Source: a bacterium
GTDB lineage: Bacteria > Zhuqueibacterota > Zhuqueibacteria > Oceanimicrobiales > Oceanimicrobiaceae
Length of the DNA stretch: 23,326 bases
Direction: 5' to 3'
NCBI GenBank assembly: GCA_046757025.1
Contig: JBHHXN010000078.1
Coordinates: 1 to 23,326 of the forward strand
In this document: positions 62-23,219 of the stretch, one piece after another
Numbering within the stretch: the first letter of the stretch is position 1
Layout of the letters: each line of letters starts with the position of its first letter
Notes under the pieces: generated by a model
The model's database searches: none
Told to the model about the DNA's origin: nothing
The model's input: the letters and a program-made list of their open reading frames with translations, nothing else
Program-made: the position numbers and the translations under genes

Positions 62-191
62 GCGTCTGACCGACAACGACCCTCTTTTGACGAAGACCTC
101 CTGGCCGAGGAGTGAATTCCTGCTTGGTTCGGGTGGAAACATTCGTGAAGAAGATTTTAAAACGCGCATTTCTCGAATTTCGGTCAGACAA
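62..191. mobile_element. 130-bp MITE, family A, copy 1
   Basis: Ends GCGTCTGACCGACAA (62-76) and ATTTCGGTCAGACAA (177-191) share a perfect 10-bp inverted core, GTCTGACCGA. TAATTA flanks both sides (56-61, 192-197). A homologous copy lies at 11554-11678. Confidence 0.85.
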
Positions 192-384: not shown

Positions 385-939
385 ATGGACAAAAATTTAA
401 AAATCAATAGCAATGTGAATTGGCAATGGTATGCACTCTACACCCGACCACGGTTTGAAAAAAAGGTGGATTCGCTGCTTAAAGAAAAAGGAATGGAGAG
501 TTTTCTCCCTTTACGCAAGGTTCGAAAGAGATGGAGTGATCGATGGAAAATCATTGAAGAGCCGTTGTTTAGCTGCTATGTGTTCGTGAGAATCCCTTTT
601 AGACAGCGTATCTTTGCTTTGCAAACACAGGGTGTGGTGCGAATGGTGACATTCGACGGCCGGCCGTCTCCCATTCCAGATGAGGAAATGGCGGCGGTGA
701 GGCGTTTGCTTCGGAGTGAAGTTAAATTCGAAATCAGCCCGTATTGTTTTGCCATTGGCCAGAAAGTCGAAATCAAGTATGGCCCGTTGGCCGGCGTCCG
801 TGGACAGTTGATTGAAAAACGCGGTCAAAAAAAACTGCTGGTGGGGATTGAACAGATCCGCCAGGGCTTGCGAATTGAAATCAGTGAACATGAAATCGTG
901 CCGGTTAGTCAGGAGAAAAAACACATCCAAGCAGCGTAA
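385..939 (+). CDS. upxY: UpxY/RfaH-family (NusG paralog) transcription antiterminator
   Basis: NGN domain (WYALYTRPRFEKKV...FLPL...WSDRWKIIEEPLFSCYVFV) and KOW motif (GQKVEIKYGPLAGVRG). First gene of a polysaccharide operon. Confidence 0.92.
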   Translation: MDKNLKINSNVNWQWYALYTRPRFEKKVDSLLKEKGMESFLPLRKVRKRWSDRWKIIEEPLFSCYVFVRIPFRQRIFALQTQGVVRMVTFDGRPSPIPDEEMAAVRRLLRSEVKFEISPYCFAIGQKVEIKYGPLAGVRGQLIEKRGQKKLLVGIEQIRQGLRIEISEHEIVPVSQEKKHIQAA

Positions 940-8050: not shown

Positions 8051-9328
8051 ATGAGCACTATTGCAATTCAGGTGGAAAAATTAAGCAAGCAGTACCGCAT
8101 AGGTACGAAGCAAGAAAGTTATCACACGCTACGCGATACTTTGACGGATACGTTTGCAGCCCCGTTTCGCCGAGTCAAGAAACTGCTGCAAGGTCAAGCC
8201 ACTGGTGCCGCCGATTTAGACGAAATCATCTGGGCGCTGAAAGACGTGTCCTTTAAAGTCGAACACGGGGAAGTACTTGGCGTCATTGGCCGCAATGGCG
8301 CCGGTAAAAGCACTTTGCTCAAGGTACTTTCTCGAATCACGGAACCCAGTGCAGGTCGTGCGCGGATTTGCGGCCGGGTTGGGTCGTTGTTGGAAGTAGG
8401 CACCGGCTTTCATCCGGAGCTAACTGGACGTGAGAATATTTTTTTGAATGGTGCCATTCTTGGCATGCGACGGGAAGAAATTGAGCGCAAATTTGATGAA
8501 ATCGTGGCTTTTTCGGAAGTAGAAAGATTTATCGACACACCGGTCAAGCATTATTCCAGCGGCATGTATCTGCGGCTGGCGTTTGCCGTGGCTGCCCACC
8601 TGCAGCCGGAAATCCTGCTGGTGGATGAAGTGCTGGCGGTGGGCGATTCCGCCTTTCAGAAAAAATGTCTGGGTAAAATGCGCGATGTGGCGGAAGAAGG
8701 GCGAACCGTTCTGTTTGTGAGTCACAATATGGGCGCCGTTTCGCAATTGTGCAGCCGAGCTCTCTGGATCGATGATGGTCAAATCAAAAGCAACGGCCCT
8801 TCAGCGGAAGTGGTGGCGCAGTATTTGACCTCGGTTTCAACCAGCAGTTCTACCTGGATTAACCAATCAAATAACTTTTCCGAGTTGAAAGCCCGTATCA
8901 AATCCGCTACCCTGATAAATTACCGTGGCGAGTTGGAGACCGTGGTGGATTTTAACAAGCCATTTAAAGTTGAAATTGTTTACGATGTGTACGAATCCAC
9001 AAAGCGATTTGCCATTTTGTGCCGTCTGACGAATATGGCCGGCGAAATCGTCTGGACCTCCTGGGATGTGGACACCACCGATTGGAGCCATCGCGAACGA
9101 GAACCCGGTCGTTATGTTTCAATTTGTACTGTGAATGGCAACTTGTTACGCCCCGGACCTTACTTGGTTTCCGTAGGATCCTTGACTCCCAGAGGACGAT
9201 TTCTGAGTTACCACGAACATGTGCTGACGTTTGAAATCTCTTCCATGGGCTTTCCCCTGAATTTAGATCGTGGTGGGGTGATCACACCTTTGCTTGAGTG
9301 GGAAATTCAAAAAATAAGACTTGTCTGA
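8051..9328 (+). CDS. wzt: Polysaccharide ABC transporter ATPase with C-terminal Wzt_C-like domain
   Basis: Walker A GRNGAGKST, signature YSSGM, Walker B LLVDEVLAVGD, H-loop VSH and a ~160-aa C-terminal extension with LRPGPYLV. RBS GAGGAG. Confidence 0.95.
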   Translation: MSTIAIQVEKLSKQYRIGTKQESYHTLRDTLTDTFAAPFRRVKKLLQGQATGAADLDEIIWALKDVSFKVEHGEVLGVIGRNGAGKSTLLKVLSRITEPSAGRARICGRVGSLLEVGTGFHPELTGRENIFLNGAILGMRREEIERKFDEIVAFSEVERFIDTPVKHYSSGMYLRLAFAVAAHLQPEILLVDEVLAVGDSAFQKKCLGKMRDVAEEGRTVLFVSHNMGAVSQLCSRALWIDDGQIKSNGPSAEVVAQYLTSVSTSSSTWINQSNNFSELKARIKSATLINYRGELETVVDFNKPFKVEIVYDVYESTKRFAILCRLTNMAGEIVWTSWDVDTTDWSHREREPGRYVSICTVNGNLLRPGPYLVSVGSLTPRGRFLSYHEHVLTFEISSMGFPLNLDRGGVITPLLEWEIQKIRLV

Positions 9329-9347
9329 GATAATTCGTTCATAAATA

Positions 9348-9491
9348 GTGATTGACCGAAAAATCCAAATTTCTTCACCCTGAGCCCTTCTACAAGCTCA
9401 GGATAAACTGCGACGAAGGGTGATAAGCTGTTGTTTTTATGTCATGCTTCGACTCTGCTCAGCATGAAGATGCTCATTTTCGGTCAATCAC
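9348..9491. mobile_element. 144-bp family-A-related MITE with REP-like cargo
   Basis: Perfect 15-bp TIR GTGATTGACCGAAAA (9348-9362)/TTTTCGGTCAATCAC (9477-9491). Direct repeat TAAATA at 9342-9347 and 9492-9497. Internal hairpins TCACCCT..AGGGTGA (9375-9423) and TCATGCT..AGCATGA (9442-9467). Confidence 0.92.
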
Positions 9492-9568
9492 TAAATAGAA
9501 TCATAAAAATATAGTATTTCAAAAGCTATTCATCAACTATTGTTTAATCGGAGGACCGAATTTAGGAA

Positions 9569-10315
9569 ATGTTACAAAAAGTTTTATCTGGAGCAAATAA
9601 ACACATTCAGTCTCTGGTAAGAAATCGTCTGTTTGGGCTGGACGCCATGGCGAAACAATATTTCAGTCAATTTGGTGAAGACGCTTGTATTCAGAGTTAT
9701 TTCCGCGCCAAAGCGTATCAAACTTTTGGCGATGTAACAAAGATGGAAAAGGGATTTTATGTGGACGTGGGAGCGTATTCTCCCAAAAAACTTTCCAATA
9801 CTTACTGGTTTTATAATCAAGGGTGGCGCGGCATAAATATTGAGCCGGCGCCCGGCTCAAAAAAAATATTTGATGCAGCCCGTCCACGAGATTTCAATGT
9901 GGAGGTCGCCATTTCGAACCAGGAAAAAGAAAGTGATTTCTTTGTTTGGGCCGTGCCGTTTGTTTACAACACCCTGAGCAAAACGAAAGCGGAAATCTTT
10001 GCTAAAAAACTGGGCAGAAAGCCTGAAAAAATAAAGGTGCAAACACAGCGATTGGAATCGATTTTGGATAGGTATCTACCGGCCGGCCAACAGATTAGTT
10101 TTTTTTCCATCGATGTAAAAGGCTACATCCTGCAGGTTTTGCAATCCAATAATTGGGTTAAATATCGTCCTGAGTTGGTGGCTATCGAAGATTTCAAGAC
10201 CAATATCCAGGAACTGCTGGATTCGGAAATTTCAAAATATATGTACAAACAGGGGTATATTTTGAAATATTGGGTACCGCCAAGCAGCATCTACGTGAAA
10301 GCAACGTTCGATTAG
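9569..10315 (+). CDS. FkbM-family SAM-dependent methyltransferase
   Basis: FSQFGED, GFYVDVGAYSP..SNT..FY..GWRGINIEP, RPRD.N..AIS, SIDVKG (consensus IDVEG) and NWVKYRP. GGAGG upstream. Confidence 0.88.
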   Translation: MLQKVLSGANKHIQSLVRNRLFGLDAMAKQYFSQFGEDACIQSYFRAKAYQTFGDVTKMEKGFYVDVGAYSPKKLSNTYWFYNQGWRGINIEPAPGSKKIFDAARPRDFNVEVAISNQEKESDFFVWAVPFVYNTLSKTKAEIFAKKLGRKPEKIKVQTQRLESILDRYLPAGQQISFFSIDVKGYILQVLQSNNWVKYRPELVAIEDFKTNIQELLDSEISKYMYKQGYILKYWVPPSSIYVKATFD

Positions 10316-11434: not shown

Positions 11435-11553
11435 ATGACTCTTCAATCCTCCATGGAGTTGCTTCGAAGAGGTCTATATTATCGCACTCGTAACGAATCC
11501 TACGATGGCGACCACAGAAAACATGATGTACGGAAGTCGGTGAGTTGTCGGGA

Positions 11554-11678
11554 GAACGAAAACGACCCTATCTTCCCGAAGGCCTACTGGCCGAGGGTGA
11601 ATTCCTGCTTGGCTCGGCGGGGACGCCTTAGCGAAGAAGTTTTTAAATCGCGTATTTCTCGAGTTTTCGTTCAGACAC
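11554..11678. mobile_element. Family A MITE, copy 2, left end damaged
   Basis: Colinear with 68-191 through shared blocks AACGACCCT, CTGGCCGAGG, GTGAATTCCTGCTTGG, GAAGAAG, TTTTAAA and ATTTCTCGA. Right TIR TTTTCGTTCAGACAC (11664-11678) is followed by TAATTA (11679-11684). Only GAACGAAAA of the left TIR remains. Confidence 0.85.
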
Positions 11679-19230: not shown

Positions 19231-19353
19231 GTAACTATTCAGCCTGTCATTCTGGAAGAATCTTTTTTGAGTTTAGACTCTATTGGCTGATCAAGAGAGT
19301 GTTAAAGAACCAACAAGATCCTTCCAGGATGACAAAACAGGGTGAATAGTTAC
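19231..19353. mobile_element. 123-bp MITE, family B, with nested GTCA palindrome
   Basis: TIR GTAACTATTCAGCCTGT (19231-19247)/ACAGGGTGAATAGTTAC (19337-19353), 16/17 match. Flanks AATTGTGG (19223-19230) and AATTTTGG (19354-19361). Inner IR 19245-19264/19315-19334, 18/20 match. Confidence 0.9.
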
Positions 19354-20346: not shown

Positions 20347-21573
20347 ATGAAAAAAACGCTTATCATTGCCAATCATTATCCGCTACCGGAAAATAACGGT
20401 TCCAATATCCGAACCATGCACTTTGTGCGATATTTCCAAAAGCTCGGACCGGTGGATATTGTGTATTCCCACACGCTGCCCGGCGCTGAAACCGGCAACG
20501 GCGCCTTTGCCAATGAATATTTATTTGAGCTGCAGGACGATTCAAAGGATTTGATCAGTCGAATGAAAAGGTTCGTGGCAACCAAAAATCGGCCGCTGCC
20601 CATATCCAAATACACCGCTGCATCTGAAACAGAATTGTTCAAAATTATCACGGCAAACGATTACGACTACCTACTTGTGCGCTATATTCGAAACACCTTT
20701 AGCCTTTTCAGGTTAAGTGCAAAATATCAAAAGCGCGTCCTAGTGGATTTCGATGACCTATTGTCGGATGCGCTTTACGATGCGCAAATAAAGCAGGTGC
20801 GGCATCCGCTCCGAAAACTGCGCTTGCAAATTAACCGTAAATATTTGAGGGAGTATGAAAAAAGGTGTTTGCATTTTGGAGCGGCTCTTTTTTGTAACGA
20901 AAGCGATCTTCTGAAAGTCTCCGGCGATCAGATGAAAAACGGCGCCGTCGTCGTTCCCAACGTCTATTCCCGTGCTTCTTTTGCCCGTTACAATTTCGGA
21001 GACGGATTTTCAAATCCCAACATTTTATTGTTCGTTGGCCTGCTTTGTTACAAGCCCAATGTAGATGGATTAAATTGGTTTGTCGATTCAATCTTTCCGG
21101 CTTTTCGACAAAAATACTCCGATGGCAAATTATGGATTGTAGGTCGGACGCCAAATGAAGAGGTCAAGGAAATGTGCGCATACCGAAAAGATATCGAACT
21201 TTTCGCGGACGTGCCGGACGTCAAACCATTTTATCGAAAGTGTCGCGCCGTGGTCGTGCCGGTTTTGACGGGCGGCGGTACCCGCATAAAAATACTGGAA
21301 GCGGCGCTGGCAAACCGTCCGATTCTCTCCACGCCGATGGGTGCTAACGGATTGGCTTTAAATCCTGACTCAGAAATTAAATTGTTTTCTGAAGAAAATG
21401 AATTTGTGAAATGCTACCAGCAACTATCAAATACAACCACTTATAGAAATTTGATCAATAACGCTCGTAAAGTCGTCACCGAAAAGTATAGCCAGGACAA
21501 TTTCGAAACGGTCCTTGATGATTTGCAAACTAAACTCGAAGTTCAAAATGAAAGCGTCAAAAGCGATGAATAA
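20347..21573 (+). CDS. GT4 glycosyltransferase
   Basis: YPLPENNGSNIRT, LFVGLLCYKPNVDGL.WF, IVGR and VPVLTGGGTRIKILEA..PILSTPMGANGL. ATG 20347 is 4 nt after the previous stop. Confidence 0.9.
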   Translation: MKKTLIIANHYPLPENNGSNIRTMHFVRYFQKLGPVDIVYSHTLPGAETGNGAFANEYLFELQDDSKDLISRMKRFVATKNRPLPISKYTAASETELFKIITANDYDYLLVRYIRNTFSLFRLSAKYQKRVLVDFDDLLSDALYDAQIKQVRHPLRKLRLQINRKYLREYEKRCLHFGAALFCNESDLLKVSGDQMKNGAVVVPNVYSRASFARYNFGDGFSNPNILLFVGLLCYKPNVDGLNWFVDSIFPAFRQKYSDGKLWIVGRTPNEEVKEMCAYRKDIELFADVPDVKPFYRKCRAVVVPVLTGGGTRIKILEAALANRPILSTPMGANGLALNPDSEIKLFSEENEFVKCYQQLSNTTTYRNLINNARKVVTEKYSQDNFETVLDDLQTKLEVQNESVKSDE

Positions 21574-22372
21574 TGGTTTGCCCAATTTAATCGTAATTGG
21601 TGCAATGAAATGTGGAACAAGCAGTTTACACCAATATTTGAGTTTGCATCCGCAGATTTGCATGTCAAAAATTAAAGAGCCGGCTTTTTTCATTAAAGAA
21701 CGCAACTGGGTGAAAGGAGTAGAATGGTATAAATCGATTTTCGAATATCATGCCCCAATAATGGGAGAATCATCAACCAGTTATACAAAAGATCCAACAT
21801 TTAAAGGGGTTCCTGAAAGAATGTTCAGTATTGTACCTGATGCAAAATTGATATATTTAGTGCGTGACCCCCTCAAAAGGATTGTGTCTCATTACATTCA
21901 CATGGTGGTGCATTATGGTGAAAAAAGAAGCATAGAAGAGGCCATCTGTGAGGATCATATCAATCAATATATTAGTTATTCTAAATATTATAGCCAACTT
22001 GTTAAATTTCTCGAGTACTATTCCCTGGAAAACCTACTGTTAATAAATTTTGATGATTTTGTTGCGAATACCAAAGACACGATGGGTAAGATTTTTAACT
22101 TTTTGAACTTAGATTGTCAATATGATGAAAAAAATTATTCGAAAGTCCATAATCAAACCATCAAGAAAAGAATTCCCAACAAACTTAAATTAAATTTAAA
22201 GAATGTGCGTGGCTTTAATAGAATCGAAAAGATCGTGCCCTGGGCATTTGGCAAGAAAATAGTAAATATTAATATAGATAGGAAACTTAAAAATCAATTG
22301 AGAGAAGCTTTGGATGAAGATATGAAACAGTTGAAAAAATTAACAGGCTTTTCATTTAATGGCTGGGATTAA
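21566..22372 (+). CDS. Sulfotransferase, heparan-sulfate ST-like, paralog 1 (AT-rich)
   Basis: LPNLIVIGAMKCGTSSL, KEPAFF, GESSTSY and KLIYLVRDPLKRIVSHY. ATG 21566 chosen by alignment with paralog 2 and the ATGAATAA overlap. Confidence 0.9.
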   Translation: MNNGLPNLIVIGAMKCGTSSLHQYLSLHPQICMSKIKEPAFFIKERNWVKGVEWYKSIFEYHAPIMGESSTSYTKDPTFKGVPERMFSIVPDAKLIYLVRDPLKRIVSHYIHMVVHYGEKRSIEEAICEDHINQYISYSKYYSQLVKFLEYYSLENLLLINFDDFVANTKDTMGKIFNFLNLDCQYDEKNYSKVHNQTIKKRIPNKLKLNLKNVRGFNRIEKIVPWAFGKKIVNINIDRKLKNQLREALDEDMKQLKKLTGFSFNGWD

Positions 22373-22409
22373 GGGCTAATTTGAGAACATAAACATTATA
22401 AAAATTAAA

Positions 22410-23219
22410 ATGAATCGTACTTTACCAAATTTATTTATAATCGGTGCCATGAAAAGCGGCACTTCCAGCTTGCACAATTATTTAGCGCTTCATCCAGAAA
22501 TTTGTATGTCCACCATCAAGGAACCCGATTTTTTTATGGAAGAAGGAACCTGGCACAAAGGTTTAGAGTGGTACAAATCAATTTTTCCAGGAACAGCAAA
22601 AATCCTTGGGGAATCTTCCACGAGCTATTCTAAATATCCCACTTACCAGGGCGTGCCGGAGAAAATGGCCCAACACGCACCAGATGCCAAGCTGATCTAT
22701 ATTTTACGCGATCCCATCCGGCGCATCGTTTCGCAGTACATGCACATGGTGGTGCACCATGGCGAAAAACGCGCTTTTGAGGAAGCGGTTACCGCCAACG
22801 GTCAAAATGAATATCTTATCAATTCGCGCTATTATCTGCAATTGGAGCGGTATTTAAATTGTTTTTCCCGAGATCAGATGATGGTCGTGGAATTCGAAGA
22901 TTTCAGTAGAAATACCAAAAGCGTTATGCGGCAGATATTTGCTTTTTTAGGGGTGGATGAAAAGTTTGAAAGCGAAGCGTTTTCGGTGAAGCACCACCAA
23001 TCCAGCAAAAAAAGAAAACAGTATTGGCTTAAAAAACAGGTTCAAAACTTACGAGGCAGTTACCGACTCGAGCAGTGGGCACCCTGGCTGTTTGGCGCGA
23101 AAATATCTAAACCTGCCTTGAACGATTCGATCGCAGCCAAACTCAAATCGGCTCTGCAAGAGGATATCGATAAATTACGAACATTCACGGGCCTAACATT
23201 TGAAGCCTGGAGCCTCTAA
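22410..23219 (+). CDS. Sulfotransferase, heparan-sulfate ST-like, paralog 2
   Basis: LPNLFIIGAMKSGTSSL, KEPDFF, GESSTSY and KLIYILRDPIRRIVSQY. Confidence 0.92.
   Translation: MNRTLPNLFIIGAMKSGTSSLHNYLALHPEICMSTIKEPDFFMEEGTWHKGLEWYKSIFPGTAKILGESSTSYSKYPTYQGVPEKMAQHAPDAKLIYILRDPIRRIVSQYMHMVVHHGEKRAFEEAVTANGQNEYLINSRYYLQLERYLNCFSRDQMMVVEFEDFSRNTKSVMRQIFAFLGVDEKFESEAFSVKHHQSSKKRKQYWLKKQVQNLRGSYRLEQWAPWLFGAKISKPALNDSIAAKLKSALQEDIDKLRTFTGLTFEAWSL

What the first reader, a model, noticed from the sequence alone, without database searches (positions are those of the whole stretch)
9348..9491. Nested element: REP-like bipartite palindrome inside a perfect TIR/TSD shell
Seen: inside the perfect 15-bp TIRs lie TTCACCCTGAGC-CCTTCTACAAGCTCAGG-ATAAACTGCGACGAAGGGTGA and GTCATGCTTCGACTCTGCTCAGCATGA. 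These form two facing hairpins of the ..CTGAGC..CGAAG / CTTCGAC..GCTCAG.. type, with an extra half-unit nested in the first. I recognise this pattern from memory as a widespread REP-like repeat type that normally occurs without TIRs. Inference: a palindromic repeat has been captured by, or preferentially inserts into, a DDE-type MITE, making a parasite inside a parasite. Perfect TIRs and TSD suggest a recent insertion.
Basis: partly seen in the sequence, partly recalled or inferred. Interest (0 to 1): 0.7.

Follow-up and report, generated by a model that had tools for sequence, protein, structure and literature searches.

The report
Mini-transposon carrying nuclease-linked hairpin cargo
This 144-base repeat has the ends of a known insertion-sequence family and carries DNA hairpins that in related bacteria flank a small, untested nuclease gene, and the same hairpin cargo sits inside several unrelated transposon shells, so such hairpin repeats likely spread by hitchhiking on other elements' transposases.

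Summary
In detail: perfect 15-bp TIRs (9348-9362, 9477-9491), a real 6-bp TANNTA duplication, two facing hairpins and a nested, inverted third one.

Shell: a MITE of ISNCY-family (NF033593) insertion sequences, whose ~1.9-kb autonomous copies in relatives have the same ends and duplication. This genome holds about 150 paired copies, with at least seven unrelated cores.

Core: this hairpin pair lies in 20 such shells, and also in IS1182-type and other shells. Its hairpin flanks a small GIY-YIG gene of a UPF0213-like clade distinct from Ssn (12 of 30 loci, against 1 of 18 Ssn-type loci); that gene was not found in this genome. The spacer resembles an IHF site and sits centrally in 11 of 25 MITE families (1.5 expected).

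Capture by a DDE MITE is therefore supported. "Recent" is not: this copy differs from its subfamily at 8 of 148 bases and no empty site was seen. How cores enter shells is inferred, not shown. The scan noted similar shell-plus-hairpin elements before, on other DNA. Verdict: new variant of known kinds.

The parts
9342..9347 (.). left target-site duplication (TAAATA, TANNTA type)
   Evidence: same 6-bp TANNTA duplication around autonomous ISNCY elements
9348..9362 (+). left terminal inverted repeat, ISNCY (NF033593) type
9373..9423 (+). left hairpin P (CTTC-tagged, tag outward), with the nested insert in its loop
9386..9411 (-). nested inverted third hairpin plus tail; optional insert (net +23 bp), also found in the loops of unrelated cores
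   Evidence: of 148 genome matches, 81 lie in another core family, 38 in this context or with this tail, 8 in a third hairpin type, 21 elsewhere
9424..9436 (-). IHF-like site (1 mismatch to the recalled E. coli consensus); exact centre of the 121-bp basal form; binding not tested
9442..9469 (-). right hairpin M (CTTC-tagged, tag outward)
9477..9491 (-). right terminal inverted repeat
9492..9497 (.). right target-site duplication
8051..9328 (+). upstream neighbour (context only): Wzt-type ABC transporter ATPase of a polysaccharide cluster
   Evidence: PF00005, PF14524
9569..10315 (+). downstream neighbour (context only): FkbM-type methyltransferase
   Evidence: PF05050

Best explanation
The element has ISNCY-type ends and a 6-bp target duplication, encodes nothing, and is likely copied by an ISNCY transposase supplied in trans; its cargo is a pair of hairpins that elsewhere flank a small GIY-YIG gene, likely captured as a ready-made pair and now riding passively, with a central site predicted to let an IHF-like protein bend the short element so that its two ends meet. 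Step by step: (1) shown: shell ends and duplication equal those of NF033593 insertion sequences. (2) Shown: the same hairpin pair, in the same order and with the spacer motif in the same orientation where it is present, lies in shells of at least two transposase families. (3) Shown: this hairpin flanks a UPF0213-like GIY-YIG clade. (4) Inferred: hairpin-gene-hairpin units are taken up between TIRs and lose the gene, leaving TIR-hairpin pair-TIR; gene-bearing intermediates are seen in this shell for the Ssn-type hairpins, not for this hairpin type. (5) Inferred: cores pass between shells by recombination or nested insertion and erosion. (6) Inferred: the central IHF-like site favours transposition of so short an element. 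The nested third hairpin is likely a later, independent insert.
For: Shell: NF033593 transposases over the curated cut-off are bounded by these TIRs (L026, L027, L028). Of 84 loci, 61 gave paired ends, with the duplication 6/6 in 36 and 5/6 in 11, median 1,883 bp (a few pairs are mis-called and some are copies from one genome). G000 holds the 3' end of such a transposase with this TIR (C83). Cargo is foreign to the IS: REP-like words lie inside the ends of only 4 of those 61. Many-to-many pattern: one shell holds families of 74, 20, 18, 15, 10, 4, 2 and 2 copies. Of 115 hairpins of this type, 20 lie in paired ISNCY shells, 12 in S4, 9 in S10, 7 in S11, 7 in S12 and 2 in S8. S10 ends equal those of IS1182 elements (L325, L327, L331) and S11 ends those of an IS1182-like element below cut-off (L338). 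Nuclease link: the window-derived strict pattern lies within 200 bp of 12 of 30 UPF0213-like genes, and a looser one by 16 of 30 against 1 of 24 control flanks; strict pattern by 1 of 18 Ssn-type genes; the two protein sets split 100/100. Intermediates: an intact Ssn-type gene with hairpin pairs inside these TIRs in G018 (L252); a broken one in G000 (C28:25996-26835); an unshelled tags-outside pair of this type beside a broken UPF0213-like gene in G014. IHF-like site: central in 11 of 25 MITE families, 1.5 expected, reversed-motif control 2; at the same +55 or +56/53 position in three unrelated 121-122-bp cores of this shell; in 25 of 46 IS left ends against 7.9 expected.
Against: No intact ISNCY transposase was found in G000 (94.8% complete, 374 contigs), and no empty site in four runs of one study at this locus or across two sister copies, so present mobility is not shown. 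The UPF0213-like gene was never seen inside a TIR shell (26 loci checked) and was not found in G000. The IHF-like site is missing from the centre of 14 of 25 families, including the largest (74 copies), so it is not required; only 8 of 20 distinct spacers of this core match it; the 11 positive families amount to about 8 independent lineages; the consensus is recalled; and the two HU/IHF-family genes of G000 stay below the IHF cut-offs. The site lies 55 bp from one tip against 31-33 bp in IS left ends, a difference equal to one hairpin (24 nt), which fits the rival of hairpins inserted into an IS-derived chassis.
Confidence: 0.6

Rival explanations
1. Active parasite-in-parasite: the chassis (TIR, IS-derived IHF site, TIR) came first, and single hairpins were inserted on each side of the site, repeatedly, by their own nuclease-driven mobility.
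For: Three unrelated hairpin types sit around an identically placed IHF-like site in 121-122-bp shells. The +55 position equals the IS position (+31 to +33) plus one 24-nt hairpin. The nested hairpin turns up in the loops of at least three hairpin types, so single units can be added. Single unshelled hairpins exist.
Against: The order P-spacer-M and the motif's orientation are the same in ISNCY and IS1182-type shells and across genera, which is simpler as one inherited pair. An unshelled pair exists beside a nuclease gene. No empty chassis was recognised in G000, and the nuclease was not found there.
Confidence: 0.25
2. The element is kept by the host as an RNA or DNA control element between wzt and the methyltransferase gene, for example a terminator, an mRNA-stabilising hairpin or a nucleoid site.
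For: It is intergenic, 19 bp after a stop codon, in a co-oriented gene cluster; 0 of 20 copies lie inside a long open frame. MITEs and REPs affect mRNA stability and transcription in other bacteria (PMC3184786, PMC10969869, passages).
Against: No terminator-like site and only chance-level promoter matches. The core folds weakly as RNA, and this copy's substitutions weaken its hairpins (P with insert -6.6 against -9.4 kcal/mol in a consensus-like copy). Copies are scattered beside unrelated genes.
Confidence: 0.08
3. It is one simple MITE whose inner palindromes are intrinsic; the likeness to REPs and to other shells is convergence or later gene conversion.
For: In G000 the full tags-outside core was never seen without a shell end, and it fails the published SRM pattern.
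Against: Near-identical cores occur in unrelated shells, hairpins of this type flank nuclease genes across the phylum and in Sphingomonas, and autonomous ISNCY ends lack them.
Confidence: 0.05
4. The shell-core combinations are assembly artefacts of a repeat-rich metagenome bin.
For: Short-read bin in 374 contigs; several copies end at contig edges; a few elements have the left end of one shell and the right end of another (C149:107, C39:29802, C26:32363, C17:23193).
Against: The multi-copy combinations have matching TIR pairs and duplications at different sites. The ISNCY shell with this core recurs in other metagenome records (L114, L121, L131). At this locus, run contigs join the unique left flank to 9487 and 9417 or 9458 to the unique right flank with 0-1 differences.
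Confidence: 0.02

Closest known systems
Bacterial MITEs derived from insertion sequences; here ISNCY family, NCBIfam NF033593 (from memory probably the ISDol1 group; not checked)
   Same: Short, non-coding, multi-copy; TIRs and 6-bp duplication equal to those of an autonomous IS.
   Different: The interior is not IS-derived deletion sequence but exchangeable hairpin cargo shared with shells of other IS families.
Ssn nucleases with NTS/SRM hairpins (Chenal et al. 2025, PMC11893778)
   Same: Small single-domain GIY-YIG gene bracketed by oriented hairpins; other cores of this shell are of this type.
   Different: This hairpin misses the SRM pattern by 3 mismatches and goes with a separate UPF0213-like clade. 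The paper's main text has no occurrence of 'MITE', 'UPF0213' or 'cd10456'.
CGTC-tagged REPs (Di Nocera et al. 2013, PMC3733652)
   Same: 20-30-nt tagged hairpins, mostly extragenic, paired with tags outside; TGTC- and CGTC-tagged versions of this hairpin occur in relatives. The paper notes a few REP dimers inside longer palindromes (H. neapolitanus, A. variabilis).
   Different: The tag here is CTTC. The paper found no dedicated transposase and suggested mobilisation by a broad range of transposases; TIR shells matched to named IS families give a concrete route.
E. coli BIMEs with an IHF site, and Neisseria Correia/NEMIS 155-bp elements (PMC3184786, PMC2229807, passages)
   Same: Hairpin-IHF site-hairpin layout, and an IHF site inside a MITE that was proposed to aid transposition.
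   Different: Here both features are combined in one element; the hairpins are not GTAG/RAYT REPs; IHF binding is only predicted.

Membership tests
MITE | terminal inverted repeats and target-site duplication | tested here: met
MITE | short, non-coding, multi-copy | tested here: met
   144 bp, intergenic; 20 copies with this core, 153 paired shells
MITE | ends shared with an autonomous IS | tested here: met
MITE | filled and empty alleles, or mobilisation in trans | tested here: inconclusive
   no empty-site joint in 4 runs of one study; contigs show presence, not absence
ISNCY (NF033593)-derived element | TIR and TANNTA duplication of NF033593 IS | tested here: met
ISNCY (NF033593)-derived element | intact cognate transposase in the same genome | tested here: inconclusive
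   only a 3' fragment with the TIR at C83; draft genome
ISDol1 group of ISNCY | 1.6-1.9 kb with 6-7-bp duplication and ISfinder assignment (recalled) | not testable with these tools
   size and duplication fit; the ISfinder table was not held
CGTC-tagged REP | terminal CGTC/TGTC/CCTC tag | tested here: not met
   CTTC in the window; TCTTC, ACTTC or GCTTC in 69 of 83 shell-associated hairpins; GTC-tagged forms occur in relatives
CGTC-tagged REP | extragenic, tags-outside (HH) dimers | tested here: met
CGTC-tagged REP | 8-9-bp stem, 4-5-nt loop and CCA-like tail of families 1-4 | tested here: inconclusive
   7-bp canonical stem predicted; the paper's Figure 2 consensus could not be read
Ssn-related motif (SRM) | match to the published degenerate SRM pattern | tested here: not met
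   3 mismatches needed
Ssn-related motif (SRM) | flanks genes of the Ssn-type clade | tested here: not met
   1 of 18 Ssn-type loci; cd10448 itself could not be scored, and 'Ssn-type' rests on likeness and on GTC-tagged flanks
Ssn-related motif (SRM) | flanks a small single-domain GIY-YIG gene (works-like test) | tested here: met
   12 of 30 strict, 16 of 30 loose, control 1 of 24
Ssn-related motif (SRM) | site-specific binding and cutting as single-stranded DNA | not testable with these tools
   needs protein assay
GTAG REP / REPIN-RAYT | GTAG tag and adjacent RAYT gene | tested here: not met
   no GTAG tag; 3 of 3 Y1_Tnp loci of G000 without these hairpins, by eye
BIME with IHF site / Correia-like IHF MITE | IHF-binding site between the repeats | tested here: inconclusive
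   motif enriched and central but consensus recalled, binding untested, host IHF not established

The most novel reading that the evidence does not exclude
A UPF0213-like GIY-YIG clade is a second family of site-specific single-strand hairpin nucleases, separate from Ssn, and bacterial MITEs in this lineage are modular vehicles: IS ends of several transposase families take up nuclease-linked hairpin cassettes around a centred, helically phased IHF-type bend site, so orphan REP families keep spreading after their nuclease is lost. This would be the missing dispersal route of CGTC-type REPs.
Probability: 0.3. Interest if true: 0.75.

Novelty: new variant of a known kind. Interest (0 to 1): 0.52.

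Why it matters
Di Nocera et al. (PMC3733652) left open how CGTC-type REPs spread without a dedicated transposase, and Chenal et al. (PMC11893778) left open how Ssn hairpins expand. This locus offers a directly testable route: carriage inside MITEs of named IS families. It also points to a second clade of roughly 100-residue GIY-YIG proteins with its own hairpin, which the published SRM pattern misses; if it cuts single-stranded DNA site-specifically it widens a new class of molecular tools and gives UPF0213-like proteins a function. The central IHF-like site suggests a design rule for how 120-150-bp elements can still be transposed. For the host, this single copy is probably neutral.

Tried and rejected
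Rfam: nothing at E up to 10 around the element and nothing at gathering score in 10 nuclease or shell loci. First guess that the shell is IS1182/IS5-type: rejected; no such ends at DDE_Tnp_1, DUF772 or DDE_Tnp_1_6 loci. Idea that the CTTC tag is an escape mutation from Ssn cleavage: dropped, because CTTC-tagged hairpins flank their own nuclease genes. RAYT link for a minor core of the shell (C73:22289, C271:3577, likeness recalled): not confirmed. A DNA tree of cores by shell was discarded, because the pattern caught many elements on both strands; its counts are likewise doubled and were replaced. Free versus shelled dimers for the IHF-like site: inconclusive (8 of 48 against 20 of 76; the free class holds many chance matches). 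Helical phasing of the site's distance to the tips (Rayleigh p about 0.008 at 10.5 bp, 24-25 non-independent values) is treated as a hint only. Empty-site search: none seen; no RNA holder listed. A single-protein scan of genome contigs and a viral scan for the nuclease found nothing. The transposases of shells S4, S8 and S12 were not identified. Literature: ten searches found no paper describing REP- or SRM-type cargo exchanged between MITE shells, or hairpins linked to UPF0213-like genes; the library lacks most subscription papers.

Full report
Observation. The element lies at 9348-9491, between a Wzt-type ABC ATPase gene (8051-9328) and an FkbM methyltransferase gene (9569-10315) of a polysaccharide cluster. 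The 15-bp TIRs are perfect and flanked by TAAATA on both sides. No shuffle of the window (0 of 100) gives such a pair. The fold of the whole element is significant because of the TIRs; the core alone is weak. Rfam has nothing.

The shell. The window is contig C78 of genome G000 (5.96 Mb, 374 contigs). A profile of the TIR paired 142 elements, and a second scan 153. The duplication is 6 bp, TANNTA: its free middle bases agree on both sides in 101 of 152 copies, against 28 expected. The TIR pattern occurs in 16 of 20 same-family genomes and 3 of 20 more distant ones, and the reversed control in none. IS1182/IS5-type loci did not carry these ends. NF033593 ISNCY transposases did: L026, L027 and L028 are bounded by them, and G000 keeps the 3' end of such a gene with its right TIR on C83. 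In a wider set, 61 of 84 loci gave paired ends, median length 1,883 bp, with the duplication perfect in 36 (some pairs are mis-called and some loci are copies from one genome). REP-like words lay inside the ends of only 4 of the 61. The shell is therefore a MITE of this IS family, and its interior is not ordinary IS sequence.

One shell, many cores; one core, many shells. The shell holds families of 74, 20, 18, 15, 10, 4, 2 and 2 copies, plus 8 singles; most cores are paired hairpins of TGTC type, and the 20-copy family is the one in the window. Conversely, of 115 hairpins matching a strict pattern taken from this core, 20 are in paired ISNCY shells, 37 in five other paired shells, 26 near one shell end, 2 at contig edges and 30 have no listed shell end, some of these in further unlisted or eroded shells. 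Two of the other shells have the ends of IS1182 or IS1182-like elements. The full tags-outside pair was not seen without a shell end in G000 (read by eye). In relatives the core matched 9 of 20 same-family genomes and 0 of 20 others, mostly in IS1182-type shells. In metagenome records, 76 distinct contexts (from 80 fetched of 86 stretches) show at least six shells by eye, including this same shell-core pair in L114, L121 and L131; many come from a few related samples. A few mixed-end elements may be recombinants or assembly joins.

What the hairpin is. It misses the published SRM pattern by three mismatches (pattern from PMC11893778), and its tag is CTTC rather than CGTC. Small GIY-YIG genes of G000 and relatives are flanked by GTC-tagged hairpins, as described for Ssn. 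One more distant gene, L260 in G011, is flanked by exactly this hairpin. Its relatives occur in 42 of 167 genomes of the phylum at E up to 1e-12, not in G000. Of 30 loci, 12 have the strict pattern within 200 bp and 16 a looser one (12 on both sides), against 1 of 24 control flanks and 1 of 18 Ssn-type genes. Copies typically face the gene from both sides with tags outside, the arrangement of our core. The protein is PF01541, and its only solved relatives are UPF0213 proteins 1ZG2 and 1YWL. In a tree of 48 proteins the two sets separate at 100/100, and four unflanked UPF0213-like proteins form their own branch (the flank labels in that tree were widened after I had seen the flanks). A Sphingomonas plasmid gene has the same hairpin. 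Cleavage is untested.

How cargo gets in. Gene-bearing intermediates exist for the Ssn-type hairpins: an intact gene with hairpin pairs inside these TIRs in G018, a broken one inside an 840-bp shell in G000, and a second shell type around broken and deleted copies. For this hairpin type, an unshelled tags-outside pair lies beside a broken nuclease gene in G014, but no gene was seen inside a shell. Capture of a ready-made pair followed by passive amplification is thus inferred by analogy. The nested piece (9386-9411) is an inverted third hairpin, optional in three shells and common in an unrelated core, which shows that single units can be added and keeps the rival of active insertion alive.

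The spacer. Bases 9424-9436 match the recalled E. coli IHF consensus with one mismatch and lie at the exact centre of the 121-bp form, at the same position as in two unrelated cores of this shell. Such a site is central in 11 of 25 MITE families of the genome, with 1.5 expected from shuffling the central window and 2 for the reversed motif, and is enriched in IS left ends (25 of 46, 7.9 expected). Against a requirement: 14 families lack it, including the largest; only 8 of 20 distinct spacers of this core match; the families are not independent; and host IHF is not established. IHF sites are known in BIMEs and in Correia elements, where a role in transposition was proposed (PMC3184786, PMC2229807).

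Age and local role. The window copy has 8 differences in 148 nt from its subfamily, more than seven of the eight others. Four runs of one study show no empty site here or at two sister copies. No terminator-like site was found. The copy is probably a neutral, somewhat decayed insertion.

What is known. Seen: PMC3733652, parts 1-6 of 8 of the text, figures not available, supplements searched for three terms; PMC11893778, parts 1-5 of 11 plus passages, and 12 of 14 supplementary files searched without a hit for UPF0213, cd10456 or this hairpin's words (the two unsearched files and the figures may bear on novelty); PMC3184786, PMC10969869, PMC11602168 and PMC2229807, passages only. Ten searches found no paper on cargo exchange between MITE shells or on UPF0213-linked hairpins (listed under Tried and rejected). 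The ISDol1 label and the IHF consensus are recalled. Earlier notes of this scan report similar shell-plus-hairpin elements in other genomes and ISNCY MITEs elsewhere in this genome; I saw them after the shell, core and nuclease results, and they are not independent support.

Verdict. A real ISNCY-derived MITE with exchangeable, nuclease-linked hairpin cargo. Every part resembles a known kind; the combination, the second nuclease clade and the centred IHF-like site are the new and testable aspects. New variant of a known kind, interest 0.52.

Noticed in passing
window 62-191: Another, more decayed copy of the same ISNCY shell, with an unrelated GC-rich core (the 74-copy family) and a TAATTA duplication.
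   Followed up: partly
window about 11548-11678: Same shell and GC-rich core with the left TIR mostly lost.
   Followed up: partly
window 19231-19353: MITE of a different TIR family (S6) carrying a TGTC-tagged hairpin pair.
   Followed up: partly
G000:C28:25996-26835 (L162): ISNCY shell enclosing hairpins and a broken Ssn-type GIY-YIG gene that is itself interrupted by a further small inverted-repeat element.
   Followed up: partly
L252:531-1190 (G018:C484): Intact Ssn-type gene between two long hairpin pairs, all inside ISNCY TIRs: a candidate cargo-carrying non-autonomous transposon.
   Followed up: partly
G000 genome-wide: At least 13 MITE TIR families (367 paired elements, with some overlap between two patterns), most with hairpin-pair cores; one family shares the TANNTA target and abuts the ISNCY shell through a shared duplication in 9 cases; another inserts into these hairpins.
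   Followed up: partly
G000:C173:9300-10230 (L161): Intact Ssn-type GIY-YIG gene amid several unshelled TGTC-tagged hairpin pairs; a 91% identical protein occurs twice in G013.
   Followed up: partly
L293 and L301 (G019:C232, G116:C368): UPF0213-like GIY-YIG domain with its flanking hairpins embedded in frame in open frames of over 900 codons that look helicase-like, i.e. an in-frame insertion of the whole cassette.
   Followed up: no
G000:C95:17364-17573 and C59:26963-27172: Two further small GIY-YIG types: one between short inverted repeats inside another gene region, one between tRNA-like repeats.
   Followed up: no
G000:C149:107-225, C39:29802, C26:32363-32466, C17:23193: Elements with the left end of one shell and the right end of another around the shared core: recombination or mis-assembly.
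   Followed up: no
window 385-939 and 21515-23219: The polysaccharide cluster starts with what looks like a NusG/UpxY-type antiterminator gene and ends with two paralogous sulfotransferase-like genes (labels from reading the proteins, not scanned).
   Followed up: no
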